Positions 31,149 to 37,588 of a DNA stretch of 64,000 bases are shown in pieces. The notes beneath the pieces are model-generated. The model made no database searches and was not told where the DNA came from. It saw only the letters and a list, made by a program, of their open reading frames with translations. Location: NCBI GenBank assembly GCA_963827855.1, contig CAWHBY010000001.1, positions 133,799-197,798 of the forward strand, read 5' to 3'. The position numbers and the translations under genes were made by a program. The number at the start of each line of letters is the position of its first letter. Position 1 is the first letter of the stretch. The DNA is from an uncultured Phycisphaerae bacterium (GTDB lineage Bacteria; Planctomycetota; Phycisphaerae; Sedimentisphaerales; Anaerobacaceae).

Positions 31149-31907
31149 ATGAGAAACGCTCTGCAGGACAGGGTCAGGCCCGGCACGGCCAGGCCTGAGG
31201 CTGACGAGGATCGAAGGAAGTGTCCCTTCTGTGGGGAGATGATCCAGACAGAGGCGGTCAAGTGCCGGTATTGCCGCGAATTCCTCGAAGATCCCGATAT
31301 CCTGCCGGTCTCACGCCACGCAGTGCGACCGGGGGCCCAGAAGGTGGGCGTCGGACAGGAGACCGATCCGGTGGATGCGGACGAGGAGTCCCCGACGATC
31401 CTCACGCCTTCGCTATGGGCCATGACGGACTCCGCGTGGAAGGGGGCCTGCATACTGGCTGTGGCCATCTTCGTGCTGGCCCTTCCGATTGAGCGATGGG
31501 TCCTGGTCTTCAAAGGGTTGTCGGATAGCGCCATCCGAGGCATGGCCCAGACGATCAATCTTGCGGCCGAGGGTACGATCGTCGTAGTCCTGGTCTGGCT
31601 GGGCCTGCGGGCTGCGTTTCTGCGGAGCATCCATTACGAGATCAGTCCGGACCGGATCGAGTGGGCCAGGGGCCTGTTCAGCCGCGAGATCGACAACATC
31701 GACATGTTCCGCGTGATCGACATCAAGCTCCATCGCTCCATCCTGGACTGCATCACCGGCGTCGGCACAGTCACGGTGATGACCAAGGACGACAGCGACC
31801 CGACCTTCCAGTTCGAGAAGGTCAGGAATCCCCGCCGGCTCTATGACGCGATCAAACACGCCACGCTCGAAGCGGACAGGCGCCAGGGCGTGGTGCACAT
31901 CGAATAA
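31149..31907 (+). CDS. Zinc-ribbon plus membrane-anchored bacterial PH (bPH_2/YdbT-like) domain protein
   Basis: CPFCGEMIQ..CRYCREF zinc ribbon. Two hydrophobic helices. C-terminal ISPDRIEWARGLFSREIDNIDMFRVIDIKLHRSILDCITGVGTVTV matches the bPH_2 pattern. Confidence 0.65.
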   Translation: MRNALQDRVRPGTARPEADEDRRKCPFCGEMIQTEAVKCRYCREFLEDPDILPVSRHAVRPGAQKVGVGQETDPVDADEESPTILTPSLWAMTDSAWKGACILAVAIFVLALPIERWVLVFKGLSDSAIRGMAQTINLAAEGTIVVVLVWLGLRAAFLRSIHYEISPDRIEWARGLFSREIDNIDMFRVIDIKLHRSILDCITGVGTVTVMTKDDSDPTFQFEKVRNPRRLYDAIKHATLEADRRQGVVHIE

Positions 31908-31913
31908 GACAAG

Positions 31914-31989
31914 AAGTAAGATGCAGGATGCAGGAAGTAAGATCCGGCGATCGCCTCGTGTCTCTTACCTCTTACCTCTTACCTCTGGT
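31914..31989. repeat. Tandem heptamer arrays flanking a GC palindrome between convergent genes
   Basis: AAGTAAG ATGCAGG ATGCAGG AAGTAAG (31914-31941). GGCGATCGCC palindrome (31946-31955). CTCTTAC x3 plus CTCTGGT (31962-31989). GTAAGA (31937-42) can pair with TCTTAC (31963-68). Confidence 0.85.
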
Positions 31990-33715
31990 CGGCGGATGGC
32001 GTGATCGCTTCCCATTCGATGTTCGATGCCCCGAGCAGCGTGCCTGTGGCGTAGGCCAGGTCCACCAGGGCGATCTGATAGTCGGTCAGGGCCGAGATCT
32101 CGGTGCTCTGGGCGTTGGCCAGGCTGGCCTGGGCATTGAGCACGTCCGTGGAGGTCCGCAGCCCCAGCTCGAACTGCCGTTTCTCGGCTTCATACAGGCG
32201 GCCGGCCAGGACGGTATTCTGCTGTCCCGCCAGTATCCGCTGCCAGTTGGCCTCCAGTCCTGACACCGCGTTGAGGACCTCCTGCTCGATCTGGGCCCTG
32301 CGGCTCTCCCGCGTGGCCAGCCGCTGACACTTCTGGTACACGGCCTGCCGGACGCGGCTCTTGGCAGCCTCATTGCCTATGGGGATCTGGAGTTTCAGTC
32401 CCAGGCGGTTGTCTGAGAAACGATTCTCCCCCAGCATGCTCCAGGAGTCCTCGCGTGAGGCGCCCATGCCGTTGAGATTGTAGTTGTAGTCGAACACGAC
32501 TGAGGGCAGGGACAGGTCTCGCTGGTAGTCGACGTTGAGGCTGTCTTGTGCCAATCGGAGCTCCAGTTCGAGCATCTCCATACGGTTGTGGATGGCAGAA
32601 TCCACCAACTGGTCGGACCTCAGGTCATAGCGAACCGGCGTCGGCTCCGTCATGGGGACCACGGCCGTGGGACTCTGCATACCCAGGGCGGCCTGATTGA
32701 TCTGCCGCTTCAGCGATCTTTGGCGATTCTCGAGATTGTTCTCCGCAACGATGATGGCCTCCAACTGCTGGGCCACGCCGGCCTGCGCCCTGACGACCTC
32801 CACGGGCGCCCGATCGCCCTTGTCGACGCATCGCCGGGCCTGATCCAGTTGCGCCTTGGCTAGGTCCAATTGCTGACGCCGGACATCCAGCTCCTTGCGG
32901 GCAGCCACCAGTCGCCAGTACGACCGGTCCAGCTCCGCAGTCAGCCGGATGACCTCCAGCCGGGTCTGGGCGTCCGTGATCCGCCGGTCCAGGGTCGCGA
33001 CCTGGATGCTATACGTCGCGACTTTGGAGCCCAGCCCGCGGAGCAGTGGCTGGCTGATCGAGAATGTGAGGTCAGAGCCGTAGTACGGATTGAACTGGGT
33101 CTGCAGGGCGTCGGTCCGCGTGCGGCTGTCGGTCGCCCTCATGGACACGGTCCCGCCTGTCTCCAGGGGCTTCTGGACGCCAAGGTCGGTATACAGGGAT
33201 TCCACCTGGGACCCATAGATCTCATCGTAAAACGAGATGGCCGGCGTATCGCTCTTGGAAAGGGTGGTGTTGGCGGAGAAGCTGGCCTCGAACTTGGCCC
33301 GTTCCTGTCTGACGCGTTCGGCCGAGAGCGTGGGGTTGATCAGGGTGGCCTTGAGTTCCAGGTTATTCTGCAGAGCCATGGCCCTGCACTGCTCCAGGGT
33401 CAGCTCCAGCGAGGCCGAGGGAGGGGTGAAAAGCTCGACGATATTGGGCTCAGCGGCCTGCGGGGGCGCCACCTGAAGCCTGAGCGGCTCGATCTGCTTG
33501 AGCGGTCGATCGGCGGCGACCTTAGCCGCAGAGCCGCCGATCCCGAACACCCCGTCACACCCCGCCAGCAGAACCAGTCCGAAGGCCAGGGCCAAGGCCA
33601 AGGCGCATGCCCAGAGGCCGGCGCAATGGTGTCTGCTCCCCACCCTCCTGTCTCCTGTCTCCTGTCTCCTGGGTCCTGAGTTCTGTGTTCTGTGTTCTGT
33701 GTTCAAACTACTCAT
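31979..33715 (-). CDS. TolC/OprM-family outer-membrane efflux lipoprotein
   Basis: Two outer-membrane-efflux-protein repeats (LTLEQCRAMALQNNLELKA.., LDLAKAQLDQARRCVDKGDRAPVEVVRAQ..). Lipobox LVLLAGC. Start is ambiguous: ATG 33715 overlaps the upstream stop, while GTG 33643 (VGSRHHCAGLWACALALALAFGLVLLAGC) gives a normal lipoprotein leader. Confidence 0.8.
   Translation of the reverse strand: MSSLNTEHRTQNSGPRRQETGDRRVGSRHHCAGLWACALALALAFGLVLLAGCDGVFGIGGSAAKVAADRPLKQIEPLRLQVAPPQAAEPNIVELFTPPSASLELTLEQCRAMALQNNLELKATLINPTLSAERVRQERAKFEASFSANTTLSKSDTPAISFYDEIYGSQVESLYTDLGVQKPLETGGTVSMRATDSRTRTDALQTQFNPYYGSDLTFSISQPLLRGLGSKVATYSIQVATLDRRITDAQTRLEVIRLTAELDRSYWRLVAARKELDVRRQQLDLAKAQLDQARRCVDKGDRAPVEVVRAQAGVAQQLEAIIVAENNLENRQRSLKRQINQAALGMQSPTAVVPMTEPTPVRYDLRSDQLVDSAIHNRMEMLELELRLAQDSLNVDYQRDLSLPSVVFDYNYNLNGMGASREDSWSMLGENRFSDNRLGLKLQIPIGNEAAKSRVRQAVYQKCQRLATRESRRAQIEQEVLNAVSGLEANWQRILAGQQNTVLAGRLYEAEKRQFELGLRTSTDVLNAQASLANAQSTEISALTDYQIALVDLAYATGTLLGASNIEWEAITPSADQR
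33645..33707. repeat. Nine in-register tandem heptamers at the permease/TolC junction
   Basis: Plus strand: CTCCTGT x3, CTCCTGG, GTCCTGA, GTTCTGT x3, GTTCAAA. On the coding (minus) strand this reads TTTGAAC, ACAGAAC x3, TCAGGAC, CCAGGAG, ACAGGAG x3. Confidence 0.9.
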
Positions 33716-34976
33716 GTCTGAGGGCCTCAATCGGATCGAGCCGGGCGGCCTTGATGGCCGGGAACATGCCAAAGCAGATGCCTACGGTGCACGAGAACGC
33801 AATTGCCAGAACCGTGACCTGCCACGGGATATAGGCCATGTCCACGAACTTCGCCATGCTGGCGATGGCCTTCGTCAGGAGTTGTCCGAGGCCCAGGCCA
33901 ATCATCCCGCCCACCATGCAGATAACCATGGCCTCGATCAGGAACTGGGTCAGGATCGCGGATCTGCGGGCACCCACGGCCTTGCGGAGTCCGATCTCCC
34001 GGGTCCTTTCGGAGACAGAGACCAGCATGATGTTCATGATGCCGATCCCTCCGACCAGGAGCGAGATGCCCGCGATTCCGCCACCCGCCAGCCTCAGGTA
34101 CAGGGCCACGCGGTTGAATCCCCTCAGCTCGTTCTCCATGGACAGCAGATTGAACGTGTCCGGCTCACCAGGGCTGACGTGACGGGTGCGGCGGAAGAAG
34201 AACCGCAGCTCTGCCAGGGCGTCTTCCGACGCCTCCGAGGTGCGGCTCTCTGCGCGGGCATCGATCCAGGGGTCGCGGTTCAGCTTGAGGCCCGTGTGGA
34301 AGGGAATGAACATCTCGATGTTCTCGCCGTCTCCGCCGCTGAACATGGAGCTGGGCCTGGCCTCCAGGAGTCCCACGATGATGAAGGTATTGTAGCCTAC
34401 GAGGATGGACTGGCCGATGCAGTCCTTGTCCAGCTCCAGCTTGTCCCGCAGCTTGGGATCGATCAGACAGACCTGCCTGGCCTGTATCTCGTCCATTTCC
34501 GAAATCAGGCGGCCCAGCGTCACGGTCTTTCCCTGGATCAGATGGCAGGCCGGCTCCGCGCACGTAACGCCCACCCCCTCCACGGACTTCTCGCGACGGG
34601 TGACGGTCTGCCGGCCCAGCCCGGTCTGCATCCCGAAGCGTGAGACCGAGGGACAATGCGTCAGTAGGTTGTCGAACTGCTCGGGTCGCATCCGGAGATC
34701 CCACCAGCCGGCATTCTTCATGGGACCCGTGTTGGGACGCGTGGGCCAGATGAAGATCAGGTTGGTCCCGAACGTGGACTTGACCTCGGAGAGGATCTTG
34801 GCCTTCATCCCGCTGATCGCCGCTACGACCGCAGTCACGGACGCGACCGCGATGATGATCCCCAACATGGTCAGAAAGGACCGCATCTTGTTGGCCCAGA
34901 TCTGGCCGAGGGCCAGGAAGATGCTCTGGTACAGAAACCGCATGAAGGCCACGATCGACGTCATCACGATCCTCAT
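33708..34976 (-). CDS. macB: MacB-type ABC transporter permease (FtsX-like with a large periplasmic domain)
   Basis: 422 aa. N-terminal TM (ANKMRSFLTMLGIIIAVASVTAV), a periplasmic domain of about 220 aa, then three C-terminal TMs with RTREIGLRKAVGA. The start overlaps the ATPase stop (ATGA). Confidence 0.8.
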   Translation of the reverse strand: MRIVMTSIVAFMRFLYQSIFLALGQIWANKMRSFLTMLGIIIAVASVTAVVAAISGMKAKILSEVKSTFGTNLIFIWPTRPNTGPMKNAGWWDLRMRPEQFDNLLTHCPSVSRFGMQTGLGRQTVTRREKSVEGVGVTCAEPACHLIQGKTVTLGRLISEMDEIQARQVCLIDPKLRDKLELDKDCIGQSILVGYNTFIIVGLLEARPSSMFSGGDGENIEMFIPFHTGLKLNRDPWIDARAESRTSEASEDALAELRFFFRRTRHVSPGEPDTFNLLSMENELRGFNRVALYLRLAGGGIAGISLLVGGIGIMNIMLVSVSERTREIGLRKAVGARRSAILTQFLIEAMVICMVGGMIGLGLGQLLTKAIASMAKFVDMAYIPWQVTVLAIAFSCTVGICFGMFPAIKAARLDPIEALRHE

Positions 34977-35710
34977 CGCTTCTCCTCCTGGCCCAGGGGG
35001 TGGCTGATCCGGTCCTTGTCGACCGGCAGATCACTCAAGACCTTCCCGTCCCTCATCCGGATGATCCGTTCTGCGTGGCGGGCGATGTCGTCCTCGTGGG
35101 TGACCATGATGATCGTCTGCCCTTCCTTGTGGAGCCTATCGAACAGGCCCATGATCTCCTCGCTCGTGTGCGTGTCGAGGTTGCCGGTAGGCTCATCGGC
35201 CAGCAGGATGCTGGGCTTGTTGATCAGGGCCCGCGCGATGGCCACCCGCTGTTTCTCGCCGCCGGAGAGCTGGTTGGGCTTGTGCTTGACACGGTCTGCC
35301 AGCCCCACCCGCTCCAGGGCCTCTGTGGCGAGCTTGCGCCGCGAGACCCAGCCGTTGCGGGAGTAGATCAAGGGAAGCTCCACGTTCCTGACTGCGCTCA
35401 TCTGCCCGAGCAGCTCATAGGACTGGAACACGAACCCGATCCGCTCATTGCGGACCCTGGCGAGGTCTGCGTCGCCCATGGTCGTCGTATCCTGGCCGTC
35501 CAGGTAGTACTTGCCCGACGTGGCCCGATCCAGGCAGCCCAGCACGTTCATCATCGTGCTTTTGCCAGATCCGGAGTGTCCCATGATGGCCACGTACTCG
35601 TTGCGGCGGAGCTCCAGGCTGACCCCATCGAGGGCGCGGATGGACTCTACACCCACGATGTAAACGCGGGCTGCGTTCTCCAGACGGATGATGACATCGT
35701 TGTTGGGCAT
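34973..35710 (-). CDS. MacB/LolD-type ABC transporter ATP-binding protein
   Basis: Walker A GHSGSGKSTMMN, Q-loop FVFQSYEL, signature LSGGEKQRVAIARAL, Walker B ILLADEPTGNLD. Confidence 0.9.
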   Translation of the reverse strand: MPNNDVIIRLENAARVYIVGVESIRALDGVSLELRRNEYVAIMGHSGSGKSTMMNVLGCLDRATSGKYYLDGQDTTTMGDADLARVRNERIGFVFQSYELLGQMSAVRNVELPLIYSRNGWVSRRKLATEALERVGLADRVKHKPNQLSGGEKQRVAIARALINKPSILLADEPTGNLDTHTSEEIMGLFDRLHKEGQTIIMVTHEDDIARHAERIIRMRDGKVLSDLPVDKDRISHPLGQEEKR

Positions 35711-35799
35711 TGGTTGTTGGTTATCGGTTATTGGTTCCTGGTCATTGGTTCACAAGCCACTGGCCACCCACAGCTCATAGCTCATAGCTCATAGCTCGC
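35709..35799. repeat. Two tandem heptamer arrays in the adaptor/ATPase intergenic region
   Basis: Plus strand: ATTGGTT GTTGGTT ATCGGTT ATTGGTT CCTGGTC ATTGGTT (35709-35750, running into the ATG of the ATPase gene) and AGCTCAT x3 plus AGCTCGC (35772-35799). Confidence 0.9.
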
Positions 35800-35805
35800 G
35801 GTCCG

Positions 35806-37230
35806 TCACTTCTTGCCTGAGGCCGTCTTGTTGGGGTCTGGGGCGTTGGGCTCTTTCTTCTTCTTGTCCTTCTCGACATCCTTCTCGTCCTTGATGGCCT
35901 CATCCTGCTTCAGGCCGTCCAGTGCGCGGTAGGGGCCCACGATGACCTTGTCCTTGTCGGACAGGCCTGCCTCGATGATCGTATGGGTCAGGTTGCTGGA
36001 ACCGATCTTGACGGGCGTGATGGCCGCCTTGCCGTCTGTCGCAAGGTAGACCACGGGCGTGAAGGTCTTGTCTTTCTGGACCTCCGGTGCATTGCGGCTG
36101 GCCAGCGGAAGGTCATCTACGGGCCGGGCCAGGACTGCCTGGCTGGGCACGGTCAGGACGTCCTCGTGCTTGACCGTCTCGATCTCCACCTGGGCGCGAA
36201 GGCCGCCGTACAGCTTGGGGCCATTGGGATCGTAGTCCAGCAGGATCTCGACCCTGAAGTAGTCGGTCCCCGTCAGCGAGGTGACCCTGCGGGGCAGGTC
36301 GTTCTTGGTCAGTGCGATCTCGATGACCTCGCCGGACCATACCTTGTCCGGATAGGCCTGGATCCTGACCTTGGCCTTCTGGCCGACCTTCAGCTTTCCC
36401 ACGTCCGCCTCCGCCACCTGGGCCAGGACCAGCATCTGCGAGAGGTCCGCCACCTCCATGATCACGGTGCCGGGATTGTTCATGGTCCCCGTCATGACCA
36501 TCTCACCGACTGCCGCATTGACGCGGGTGACGATGCCGTCGATGGGCGAGACGATCGTGGTATGGCTGAGGGCCTCCTCGGCCTGGGCGATGTCTGCGTC
36601 CGCGCCCTCGAGGTTGTGCTGCATGACCTCCAGGTTCCTCTCCGAGGCTGTCAAGGAGAGCTGCTCGGCCTGGAATTGCGAGGCAGTCTCATCGTATTTG
36701 AGTCTGGCCTGATCGTAGGTGGACTGGCTGACGTCCTTGGACTGAAGCAGGTCCTGCTGCCGCTTGAGGTCCCGCTCGACCTGCTGGACCGTGGCGGAAC
36801 GGCCTTTGAGGCTTTCCTTTTGGCTGGCCAGCCTCGCCCTCTCCACGAGGATCTGGGAGGCCTGGGCTTCGCGCCTCGATTGGGCGTAACGCAGCCGGGT
36901 ATCGAGGTCCTTGGAATCCAGTCGGACCAGGAGGGACGCGGGGGTCGCCGGCGTGCCACAGGGATCCCCCTTGGTGACCTTGTCGCCTCCCTTGAATGGC
37001 ATCTCGACGATCCGGGCCGAGACCTTGGCGGAGATCTGGACGTTGGTCTTGGGGTCGATCTGACCTGGGGCACTGACGGACTCGATCAACTCTCCCTTGG
37101 CGGGCTCTTCGATGCGTACCACGGTAGGCTTGGCTGCCCCACTCTTGGCCGCCCAGAATCGCCAGCCGACGAACGCCGCGATCAGCCCGATCACGCCTAC
37201 CCAGATCAATACCTTGCGAGACCTCTTCAC
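35806..37230 (-). CDS. macA: Efflux periplasmic adaptor (MacA/HlyD family)
   Basis: GTG start with a GGGAAAGG RBS. N-terminal TM VLIWVGVIGLIAAFVGW. Lipoyl-like motifs (VSARIVEMPFKGGDKVTKGD, TTIVSPIDGIVTRVNAAVGEMV). Long coiled-coil. Lys-rich tail. Confidence 0.85.
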   Translation of the reverse strand: MKRSRKVLIWVGVIGLIAAFVGWRFWAAKSGAAKPTVVRIEEPAKGELIESVSAPGQIDPKTNVQISAKVSARIVEMPFKGGDKVTKGDPCGTPATPASLLVRLDSKDLDTRLRYAQSRREAQASQILVERARLASQKESLKGRSATVQQVERDLKRQQDLLQSKDVSQSTYDQARLKYDETASQFQAEQLSLTASERNLEVMQHNLEGADADIAQAEEALSHTTIVSPIDGIVTRVNAAVGEMVMTGTMNNPGTVIMEVADLSQMLVLAQVAEADVGKLKVGQKAKVRIQAYPDKVWSGEVIEIALTKNDLPRRVTSLTGTDYFRVEILLDYDPNGPKLYGGLRAQVEIETVKHEDVLTVPSQAVLARPVDDLPLASRNAPEVQKDKTFTPVVYLATDGKAAITPVKIGSSNLTHTIIEAGLSDKDKVIVGPYRALDGLKQDEAIKDEKDVEKDKKKKEPNAPDPNKTASGKK

Positions 37231-37588
37231 TGGCAGACCTTTCCCAAAAACCGATCTCTTCAGACGGTCTAAAGACGTCTATTCTACCTCTATTAGACGC
37301 CCAGCACCATCATTCGTTACATCGGGTCGCGCCAAATTCACTCACTTCGGAAGGGCCGGCGTCTGGGGCCACCTGGACCCCTCTCCATGCGGGGCGTGGA
37401 TCGGGTCCTCTCGCGGGCGCCAGACCCGACATTGAGACTTCCTGGGGAGCCTTCTGTGTGATACAGTATTCGGTGATTCAATGGTGGTGGTCCATGAGTC
37501 GAGTGATCTTGTTTTGTAGCTGCGTGCATTGCTCCCGGCGCTGCTGGAAAGGCAGGCGCGAGGAGAACTCCCTTGGGAGGAGCCGTCT

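What the first reader, a model, noticed from the sequence alone, without database searches (positions are those of the whole stretch)
33641..33715. Nine in-register heptamers sit exactly where TolC translation must start
Seen: on the coding strand the 63 nt read TTTGAAC (ACAGAAC)x3 TCAGGAC CCAGGAG (ACAGGAG)x3, immediately followed by G-GTG (33643). There are two readings. (a) If ATG 33715 is used (it overlaps the permease stop, CATGAGTAG), the array is translated as LNTEHRTQNSGPRRQETGDRR in front of the lipoprotein leader, and gain or loss of one unit would frameshift tolC. (b) If GTG 33643 is used, the ACAGGAG units supply phased AGGAG Shine-Dalgarno motifs. The second-last is 8 nt from the GTG, and that spacing would be insensitive to copy number. 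Inference: reading (b) fits a normal lipoprotein N-terminus better. Either way the repeat is functionally placed.
Basis: partly seen in the sequence, partly recalled or inferred. Interest (0 to 1): 0.6.

Follow-up and report, generated by a model that had tools for sequence, protein, structure and literature searches.

The report
Translated heptamer repeats in tolC leader
Nine 7-base repeats sit at the start of an outer-membrane efflux gene of a planctomycete whose genome holds hundreds of such repeats, and comparison with about 100 relatives indicates they are read as part of the cut-off export signal and kept in frame, not serving mainly as a ribosome-binding site.

Summary
On the minus strand, 33707-33645 reads TTTGAAC (ACAGAAC)x3 TCAGGAC CCAGGAG (ACAGGAG)x3, then G-GTG. 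Lag-7 identity is 48/56, against a maximum of 33 in shuffles.

The array is not specific to tolC. The 6.2-Mb Phycisphaerae genome has 575 heptamer-phase arrays, 77% of them intergenic. ACAGGAG is the commonest unit, and it occurs in both orientations.

Comparison favours the other reading. In 96 of 97 related permease-tolC junctions an ATG lies 5 nt before the permease stop. Without an insert, the lipoprotein signal peptide follows it directly. Of about 28 junctions with inserts (many are heptamer arrays), 25 stay open and in frame from that ATG (p about 1e-9; 14 of 17 by genus, p about 5e-5).

In the closest clade the unit counts are 9, 9, 6 and 6, all in frame. One contig has 5 units and is frameshifted.

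The array therefore most likely encodes 21 residues of the cleaved signal-peptide n-region. The GTG, with an AGGAG 8 nt upstream, is a plausible secondary start found only in this lineage.

The closest known cases are neuO (heptamer repeats, ON when the count is divisible by 3) and opa leader repeats. No population data were available, so switching is untested.

The parts
33708..34976 (-). MacB-type ABC permease gene (MacB_PCD + FtsX). Its stop TAG is at 33710-33708 and its C-terminus reads ...DPIEALRHE*.
   Evidence: Pfam hits. ORF. The C-terminal motif is conserved in 97 related junctions.
33713..33715 (-). Conserved ATG that overlaps the permease stop (CATGAGTAG, an 8-nt overlap). It is the inferred main tolC start, reached by translational coupling.
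   Evidence: An ATG sits 5 nt before the permease stop in 96 of 97 related junctions. Relatives without inserts run from it straight into the lipoprotein signal peptide. It is kept by His codon CAT, which is only 27.5% of His codons here.
33645..33707 (-). Nine in-register heptamers: TTTGAAC (ACAGAAC)x3 TCAGGAC CCAGGAG (ACAGGAG)x3. That is 63 nt, or 21 codons (LNTEHRTQNSGPRRQETGDRR in the ATG frame).
   Evidence: Orthologous arrays of 9, 6, 6 and 5 units occur in the closest relatives.
33652..33656 (-). AGGAG of the second-last unit, 8 nt upstream of GTG 33643. It is a candidate Shine-Dalgarno site for the alternative start.
   Evidence: The 16S 3' tail and the positional profile of AGGAG upstream of 1313 genes are.
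33641..33643 (-). GTG, a lineage-specific alternative start. It was used by the gene call stored in the protein collection (554 aa).
   Evidence: P0001 is 554 aa. There is no equivalent start in P0003, P0006 or P0007.
33557..33640 (-). Remainder of the lipoprotein signal peptide: GSRHHCAGLWACALALALAFGLVLLAG-C. The lipobox is LLAGC, with the Cys codon TGT at 33559-33557. It contains a hexamer repeat GCCTTG x3.8 (33582-33604) that encodes ALALALAF.
   Evidence: Translations. TRF row.
31979..33715 (-). TolC-family outer-membrane efflux protein gene. It is 578 aa from the ATG and 554 aa from the GTG.
   Evidence: Pfam OEP PF02321, two stretches, E = 1.2e-43. More than 1900 homologues.
34973..37230 (-). 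Upstream operon genes: the HlyD-type membrane-fusion protein (35806-37230) and the ABC ATPase (34973-35710). A 95-nt gap between them is also filled with heptamer arrays (35709-35797).

Best explanation
The array is one local member of a genome-wide class of heptanucleotide tandem repeats (NCAGRAS units). It has lodged just inside the 5' end of tolC, in the part that encodes the n-region of the lipoprotein signal peptide. tolC is translated mainly from the conserved ATG that overlaps the stop codon of the upstream MacB-type permease gene, by termination-reinitiation coupling (inferred). The nine units are therefore read as 21 hydrophilic, net-basic residues. Signal peptidase II removes these with the leader at the lipobox Cys, so the mature TolC is unchanged. 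Because the peptide is discarded, the site tolerates almost any stop-free repeat. The one constraint is reading frame, which for a 7-nt unit means copy numbers that differ by multiples of three, or compensating indels. Gain or loss of a single unit by slipped-strand mispairing would disconnect the ATG from tolC. In this genome the GTG 8 nt downstream of an array-borne AGGAG could then act as a back-up start (inferred). Shown here: the array, the genome-wide repeat class, conservation of the ATG, retention of frame across relatives, and the unit counts. Inferred: which start the ribosome actually uses in this organism, the coupling, and the cleavage.
For: 1. The array is real, and it lies in frame with the ATG with no stop.
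2. It belongs to a genome-wide class. There are 575 heptamer-phase arrays and ACAGGAG is the commonest unit. The same (NCAGAAC)n-(NCAGGAG)n composite occurs at many loci. The pattern CAGRASNCAGRASNCAGRAS has 296 hits, against 5 for the reversed control.
3. In 96 of 97 related junctions an ATG lies 5 nt before the permease stop. In uninserted relatives it opens directly onto M[SN][KR]...signal peptide...GC.
4. About 25 of 28 expanded junctions remain open and in frame from that ATG. Some carry inserts of 100-290 nt. P = 1.2e-9 against one-third; counted by genus it is 14 of 17, P = 4.7e-5.
5. In the closest clade the unit counts are G000 9, P0003 9, P0007 6 and P0006 6, all in frame. P0002 has 5 units and the same downstream flank as P0003, and it is frameshifted.
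6. P0003, P0006 and P0007 have no other start that would leave a charged n-region. Their only basic residues are array-encoded.
7. Where the repeat unit carries stop codons (G014, ATTGATG), the gene has moved to a new ATG with AGGAG 7 nt upstream. This shows that the frame matters.
8. Many database homologues start MN/MS and carry 7-aa-periodic QKSEVRS-type stretches.
Against: 1. The GTG at 33643 has a well-spaced AGGAG, and this genome does use SD sites. The stored gene call uses the GTG.
2. From the ATG the leader has 53 residues, with a 30-residue n-region that includes 3 acidic residues. That is long for a lipoprotein signal peptide.
3. Within this genome there is no general sign that arrays upstream of genes are translated. 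A start upstream of the array with an open frame through it was found in 39, 36 and 31 of 285 cases for frames 0, +1 and +2.
4. The frameshifted relative P0002 still has an otherwise intact tolC ORF. A downstream start may therefore suffice in some lineages.
5. Frame retention was counted on related genomes that are not fully independent.
6. No expression data or read data could be obtained.
Confidence: 0.68

Rival explanations
1. Reading (b): tolC starts at GTG 33643. The array is untranslated leader, and its ACAGGAG units supply Shine-Dalgarno sites at a spacing that does not depend on copy number. The in-frame ATG is a relic.
For: The anti-SD is canonical. AGGAG upstream of genes peaks with its first base at -15 to -10, and the second-last unit starts at -13. 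The GTG start gives a textbook 29-residue lipoprotein leader. The stored gene call uses it. G014 shows that the family can switch to an SD-led internal start.
Against: The GTG is absent from the closest relatives, which carry the orthologous array. 63 nt keeps the ancestral ATG in frame, as in 25 of 28 expanded junctions. NNAGGAG arrays occur in both orientations (58 sense, 45 antisense), and only 2 of 76 end within 10 nt of a called start, so they are not generally SD devices. An in-frame NTG among the roughly 13 codons after the array is likely by chance.
Confidence: 0.2
2. The array is an adaptive phase-variation switch (a contingency locus) that turns the outer-membrane channel on and off through frequent gain or loss of units, as in neuO or opa.
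For: A 7-nt unit lies in the 5' coding region. The in-frame counts are 9, 9, 6 and 6, and there is one natural 5-unit out-of-frame variant. The product is a surface-exposed protein that could be a phage receptor (inference).
Against: The longest perfect run is only 3 units, and the array is a mosaic of 5 unit types, which should slip rarely. Nearly all relatives are ON. In neuO, by contrast, about two-thirds of genomes are OFF (PMC13001214). The genome has hundreds of similar arrays that are mostly intergenic, so this is not a dedicated locus. A possible GTG back-up start would blunt any switch.
Confidence: 0.08
3. The array acts at the RNA level. It is a U-poor, purine-rich stretch that cannot fold and so keeps the coupled start region open for ribosomes. 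On this view its translation is incidental.
For: In the predicted fold of 33600-33750 most of the array is unpaired. The region is no more structured than shuffles (z = +0.6). The neighbouring ATPase start is also abutted by an A/C-rich heptamer array.
Against: The z-score is not significant. Arrays of the same family occur in both orientations and at the 3' ends of genes. Most orthologues work without any array.
Confidence: 0.04

Closest known systems
neuO of E. coli K1 (CUS-3 prophage O-acetyltransferase): AAGACTC heptanucleotide VNTR in the 5' coding region
   Same: A 7-nt tandem repeat lies just inside the 5' end of an ORF. Full-length translation occurs only when the unit number is divisible by three (PMC13001214). 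The repeat is translated as a 7-residue periodic peptide.
   Different: neuO has 3-53 perfect units, switches at high frequency, and is OFF in about 66% of genomes. Its repeat peptide stays in the enzyme. Here the array is a 9-unit mosaic with runs of 3. Relatives are almost all in frame. The peptide lies in a cleaved leader, and the repeat belongs to a genome-wide class.
Neisseria opa genes: CTCTT pentamer 'coding repeats' in the leader-peptide region
   Same: A simple repeat whose unit is not a multiple of 3 lies inside the signal-peptide coding region of an outer-membrane protein. The copy number sets the frame (PMC3745409).
   Different: The opa unit is a pentamer that encodes the hydrophobic core. 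Switching at about 1e-3 per generation has been demonstrated. No switching is shown here, and the repeat encodes the charged n-region.
Heptanucleotide simple-repeat classes of bacteria: cyanobacterial STRR, TAACTGA direct repeats of Beggiatoaceae/Cyanobacteria/Bacteroidetes, and the LSSR of Mrazek et al. 2007 (as reviewed in PMC4679880)
   Same: There are hundreds of short tandem arrays of 7-nt units, mostly intergenic. They occur in families of related units and are patchily distributed among lineages. Their function and origin are unknown.
   Different: The unit sequences differ (NCAGRAS, AGGTTTT and others). The host is a Phycisphaerae planctomycete; my searches found no paper that describes such repeats in this phylum. 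TAACTGA carries stop codons in forward orientation, whereas NCAGRAS is stop-free and is translated here.
Translationally coupled overlapping start/stop junctions in efflux operons (macAB-tolC type)
   Same: The ATPase and permease genes overlap by 4 nt. The permease and tolC genes overlap by 8 nt (ATGAGTAG), and this overlap is conserved in 96 of 97 relatives.
   Different: In this genome 63 nt of repeat have been placed directly after the overlapping start.

Membership tests
SSR contingency locus in a 5' coding region (neuO / opa type) | Tandem repeat with a unit length not divisible by 3, lying between the start codon and the body of the ORF | tested here: met
   Nine 7-nt units lie between ATG 33715 and the signal-peptide core. 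This holds only if the ATG is the start.
SSR contingency locus in a 5' coding region (neuO / opa type) | The frame is intact only at certain copy numbers, and out-of-frame alleles exist | tested here: met
   9, 9, 6 and 6 units are in frame. The 5-unit allele (L157) is out of frame with an identical downstream flank.
SSR contingency locus in a 5' coding region (neuO / opa type) | A long perfect tract that slips at high frequency, with reversible variation inside one population | tested here: not met
   The longest perfect run is 3 units.
Genome-wide heptanucleotide repeat class (STRR / LSSR-like) | Strong genome-wide excess of period-7 tandem arrays, mainly intergenic | tested here: met
   TRF rows: period 7 = 453, period 14 = 250, period 21 = 98, against 13 for period 6. 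There are 575 merged arrays, and 440 are mostly intergenic in a genome that is 83% coding.
Genome-wide heptanucleotide repeat class (STRR / LSSR-like) | Same unit sequences as the cyanobacterial STRR or TAACTGA families | tested here: not met
   The units here are ACAGGAG, AAAACCT, AACTCAG, AAGAAGT and others.
Shine-Dalgarno site for GTG 33643 | Complementarity to the 16S 3' tail at 5-10 nt from a start codon | tested here: met
   The 16S tail is GGATCACCTCCTTTCT. AGGAG lies 8 nt upstream of the GTG, inside the genome's observed window.
Shine-Dalgarno site for GTG 33643 | That start codon is used or conserved in orthologues | tested here: not met
   No equivalent start exists in P0003, P0006 or P0007, which carry the orthologous array. 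Use in vivo cannot be tested with these tools.
Bacterial lipoprotein signal peptide (SPase II substrate) | Basic n-region, hydrophobic core, and a lipobox L-[AS]-[GA]-C | tested here: met
   ...RRVGSRHHCAGLWACALALALAFGLVLLAG-C. The lipobox is conserved across relatives. Cleavage itself was not tested.
TolC / OEP outer-membrane factor | Two OEP (PF02321) repeats, encoded downstream of MFP, ABC ATPase and MacB-type permease genes | tested here: met

The most novel reading that the evidence does not exclude
NCAGRAS-type heptamer arrays may be written or spread by an active, sequence-specific process in Phycisphaerae; this genome has about 300 pattern hits and 76 of 301 class members have some. 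Because the arrays are stop-free and encode charged peptides on one strand and hydrophobic peptides (LLSSVFC-type) on the other, they would be recurrent raw material for N-terminal export signals. At tolC they would give a dual-start design: a coupled ATG reading through the array, plus an SD-led back-up start created by the array itself. That design would make expression robust to the array's own slippage.
Probability: 0.12. Interest if true: 0.75.

Novelty: new variant of a known kind. Interest (0 to 1): 0.5.

Why it matters
Simple 7-nt repeats are usually treated as non-coding clutter or as pathogen on/off switches. Here they can sit inside an essential-looking envelope gene of an environmental planctomycete. 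They are translated and are held at frame-preserving copy numbers across many species. The case also corrects the likely start codon of this TolC family: automatic callers choose downstream starts when arrays intervene. It shows that cleaved signal-peptide n-regions act as a safe harbour for repeat expansion. And it identifies a Phycisphaerae-wide heptamer repeat family whose origin is unknown. The finding does not open a long-standing question by itself, and the mechanism of start choice in this organism remains inferred.

Tried and rejected
1. Cyanobacterial origin. A GGCGATCGCC palindrome nearby suggested HIP1, but GCGATCGC occurs only 402 times in 6.18 Mb, about twice the number I estimate from base composition (count). 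TolC relatives are Phycisphaerae/Sedimentisphaerales.

2. Arrays as general SD devices. Rejected: they occur in both orientations, and only 2 of 76 end within 10 nt of a called start.

3. Arrays as a mobile element with conserved flanks. Rejected: the flanks of 36 (ACAGGAG)>=2 sites share nothing beyond the heptamers.

4. A genome-wide frame test for translation of arrays in G000. No enrichment: 39, 36 and 31 of 285 for the three frames. The case for translation therefore rests on tolC comparisons only.

5. Known RNA family. None found in 31500-37500.

6. Stable RNA structure. None: z = +0.6.

Exact-flank scans of metagenome and genome contigs found no conspecific DNA.

8. My first junction script mis-indexed the overlapping ATG and lacked TolC hits on the short loci. 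It was replaced by a coordinate-anchored analysis.

9. Apparent out-of-frame cases. L062 is caused by an NN mask, because P0052 has the same sequence in frame. L069 is a 1-nt difference in an A9 run.

10. Literature searches for heptanucleotide repeats in Planctomycetes or Sedimentisphaerales returned nothing.
Full report
**What is there**

On the minus strand the MacB-type permease gene (33708-34976; MacB_PCD + FtsX) ends ...AGA CAT GAG TAG. Directly after the TAG (33710-33708) come nine heptamers in one register: TTTGAAC, ACAGAAC x3, TCAGGAC, CCAGGAG, ACAGGAG x3 (33707-33645). One G and GTG 33643-33641 follow. The ATG at 33715-33713 lies inside CATGAGTAG. TRF finds the array. Lag-7 identity is 48 of 56, against a maximum of 33 in any 63-nt window of 50 shuffled copies of the window. 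From the ATG the frame is open into a 578-aa TolC/OEP protein (PF02321). The leader reads MSSLNTEHRTQNSGPRRQETGDRRVGSRHHCAGLWACALALALAFGLVLLAG-C, with the lipobox Cys at 33559-33557. The operon is MFP (35806-37230), ABC ATPase (34973-35710), permease, then tolC.

**The array is one of hundreds**

The window lies in a 6.18-Mb, 62% GC assembly. Its TolC relatives are labelled Phycisphaerae, Sedimentisphaerales or Pirellulales MAGs. Genome-wide, TRF gives 453 rows of period 7, 250 of period 14 and 98 of period 21, against 13 of period 6. Merged, these make 575 heptamer-phase arrays, and ACAGGAG is the commonest unit.

With a simple codon-usage gene caller (4408 genes, 83% coding), 440 of the 575 arrays are mostly intergenic. 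They are densest in convergent and co-directional gaps and about three times rarer per kb in divergent gaps. The composite (NCAGAAC)n followed by (NCAGGAG)n recurs at many unrelated loci, sometimes with an inverted partner array that could form a hairpin.

NNAGGAG arrays of two or more units occur 186 times. Between co-directional genes, 58 are sense and 45 antisense. Only 2 of 76 end within 10 nt of a called start. So the units are not in general placed as ribosome-binding sites. Three other junction arrays lie within 10 kb in this window.

Across the class, the pattern CAGRASNCAGRASNCAGRAS hits G000 296 times (reversed control 5). It also hits 75 of 300 other genomes, patchily, with up to 135 hits in one genome.

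**Where tolC starts in relatives**

I fetched the permease-tolC junction from 100 genomes of the same order, in addition to 11 closer loci and four metagenome contigs.

- Of 97 junctions with a recognisable permease end (...DPIEAL[RK]xE*), 96 have ATG exactly 5 nt before the stop.
- In G000 the His codon that creates this ATG is CAT, which accounts for only 27.5% of His codons. This argues for selection on the ATG itself.
- In the majority of junctions the distance from the stop to the lipobox Cys is 64-70 nt. The ATG then opens straight onto M[SN][KR]..., a hydrophobic core and GC. Examples are MNKKLLRLYWFVICVGFITTSLSGC (L001) and, in the same genus, MSSIGLFCKRTSHIFFLSGLVLAGHGC (G001).

This ATG is the ancestral start, overlapping the permease stop by 8 nt. 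Translational coupling is the usual interpretation of such overlaps (established knowledge; not tested here).

**Inserted junctions keep the frame**

About 28 junctions are expanded (stop to Cys more than 76 nt, up to 289 nt). Many of the inserts are heptamer arrays of several families. They translate as 7-residue periodic peptides such as QKSEVRSQKTEVRRQKSEDRS, ISNFKFQISNF and IKSQIENRKSE.

Twenty-five of these junctions are open and in frame from the conserved ATG. With a one-in-three expectation this gives P = 1.2e-9. Counting one event per genus, 14 of 17 gives P = 4.7e-5. The genomes are related, so these values are approximate.

The exceptions are informative:

- In G014 the unit ATTGATG carries TGA. 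The frame is closed, and a new ATG with AGGAG 7 nt upstream is used.
- G333 has ACG instead of ATG and a 434-nt gap.
- G160 differs by one base in an A9 run.
- L062 is broken only by an NN mask, since P0052 has the same sequence in frame.

**The closest clade**

Four relatives at 67-75% identity carry the orthologous array directly after ATGA[AG]TAG.

| Relative | Units | Frame from the ATG |
|---|---|---|
| G000 (this genome) | 9 | in frame |
| P0003 (GTTCAAC + 8 NCAGRAG) | 9 | in frame |
| P0007 (CTTCAAT + 5) | 6 | in frame |
| P0006 / G002 | 6 | in frame |
| P0002 | 5 | out of frame |

P0002 has the same downstream flank as P0003. It is therefore shifted by four units (28 nt), and its gene was called from a TTG that leaves a 12-residue leader with no charged n-region.

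Thus the four in-frame alleles have unit numbers divisible by three, and the one that does not is frameshifted. P0003, P0006 and P0007 have no other start that would leave a basic n-region; their Arg residues come from the array itself. G001, in the same genus, has no array, so the array arose or was lost within the genus.

**The GTG reading**

The 16S rRNA ends GGATCACCTCCTTTCT. Upstream of 1313 genes with an unambiguous start, AGGAG peaks with its first base at -11 (range -15 to -10), and 14% of the genes have AGGAG in the window.

Relative to GTG 33643 the last unit is too close (AGGAGG at -6 to -1). The second-last AGGAG starts at -13, which is 8 nt of spacing and inside the window. The GTG would give a classical 29-residue lipoprotein leader, and the stored gene call uses it. 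So reading (b) is mechanically sound.

However, the GTG is specific to this lineage, and an in-frame NTG in the roughly 13 codons after the array is likely by chance. Both starts would yield the same mature protein after cleavage at the lipobox Cys. Neither the peptide nor N-terminal proteomics of mature TolC can therefore discriminate between them.

**How it most likely works**

The array belongs to a genome-wide repeat class. It persists at this spot because the n-region of a discarded leader tolerates any stop-free, hydrophilic insert.

It is translated from the coupled ATG, and the frame is maintained by selection. This last step is shown by comparison across species and inferred for this genome. 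A single-unit slip would uncouple the ATG, as seen in P0002. In G000 the array-borne SD plus the GTG may buffer such a slip (inference).

I give this about 0.68. The alternatives are GTG-only initiation at about 0.2, an adaptive phase switch at about 0.08, and a purely RNA-level role at about 0.04. For the last of these, the predicted fold leaves most of the array unpaired but z is only +0.6.

Against a dedicated switch:

- Perfect runs are only three units long.
- Almost all relatives are in frame, whereas about 66% of neuO genomes are OFF (PMC13001214).

**Comparison with known systems**

- neuO has an AAGACTC heptamer VNTR in its 5' coding region and is translated in full only when the number is divisible by three (PMC13001214).
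- opa genes carry CTCTT repeats inside the leader-peptide coding sequence (PMC3745409).
- Genome-wide heptamer repeats are known from cyanobacteria and Beggiatoaceae and as LSSR (PMC4679880). My searches found nothing for Planctomycetes.

This case shares the arithmetic of neuO and the location of opa. It lacks long perfect tracts and any demonstrated switching, and it sits within a genome-wide repeat class. I therefore rate it a new variant of a known kind.

Earlier notes of this scan describe translated, frame-preserved heptamer arrays in leader peptides in other phyla. They agree with this reading but are not independent evidence.

**Limits**

- No reads or expression data were available.
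- Gene calls in G000 are my own rough ones.
- A genome-wide test in G000 gave no general enrichment for arrays lying in the frame of the downstream gene (39, 36 and 31 of 285). Translation is therefore supported for tolC by comparison, not for the repeat class as a whole.

Noticed in passing
G000 whole genome; e.g. C2:3687571-3687647, C2:1469071, C2:1664096: Many NCAGGAG arrays are followed, after a short spacer, by the reverse-complement array (CTCCTGN). This makes long imperfect hairpins. The composite (NCAGAAC)n then (NCAGGAG)n recurs at 15 or more unrelated loci without shared flanks.
   Followed up: partly
class-wide, (G000, G555, G046, G490, G526, G552): The NCAGRAS heptamer family is shared by 76 of 301 genomes of the class, in many families, but very unevenly: 296 hits in G000, 135 in G555, and none in most. 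Some genomes are instead rich in the reversed control pattern (G633: 112 hits), so they hold other heptamer families.
   Followed up: partly
L058, L095, L089, L067; proteins P0017, P0067, P0069: In relatives the hydrophobic core of the TolC leader is itself 7-aa periodic (LLSVFC, SVFCHLSSVTC). This looks like the translation of the reverse complement of CAGAAGA-type units. If so, a sense array plus its inverted partner encode 'charged then hydrophobic', which is a signal-peptide-like layout.
   Followed up: partly
window 35709-35797 (minus strand): The 95-nt MFP-ATPase gap is almost entirely heptamers: GAGCTAT x3-4, then AACCAAT-like x6. The last AACCAAT-G forms the ATPase ATG at 35710, and there is no purine-rich SD.
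   Followed up: no
window 31914-31989: The tolC stop TAA lies inside the first of three AGGTAAG units. A GGCGATCGCC palindrome and TTACTTC/CTGCATC units follow, up to the stop of the convergent gene. GCGATCGC is not strongly enriched genome-wide (402 copies).
   Followed up: partly
window 33582-33604: A hexamer repeat GCCTTG x3.8 encodes ALALALAF in the hydrophobic core of the TolC leader. Its unit is a multiple of 3, so it is frame-neutral.
   Followed up: no
L053 (G014) 1374-1500: The same junction carries ATTGATG-type heptamers, which contain TGA in frame. The ancestral ATG is closed after 6 codons, and tolC restarts at a new ATG with AGGAG 7 nt upstream. This is a natural example of the 'SD-led restart' solution.
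   Followed up: yes
G000: C1:34373-34419, C2:380778-380803, C2:862171-862203, C1:1095807-1095838: Other candidate leaders in this genome contain array-derived peptides in front of lipoboxes or hydrophobic cores. Examples are LLPLTSYLFLAGC, LLLSPVSC...FFGGC, and GDRSQETGDRR followed further on by ...LMAGGC. They were not tested by comparison.
   Followed up: no
G000 genome-wide TRF: Periods 8 (139 rows), 10 (83) and 16 (80) are also over-represented and mostly intergenic. An example is the GGAGAATC-type octamers next to NCAGGAG arrays.
   Followed up: no
Genome search table: G000 (6.18 Mb, 6 contigs) is about twice the size of the two same-genus genomes listed (2.9 Mb and 4.0 Mb, at 94% and 87% completeness).
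   Followed up: no
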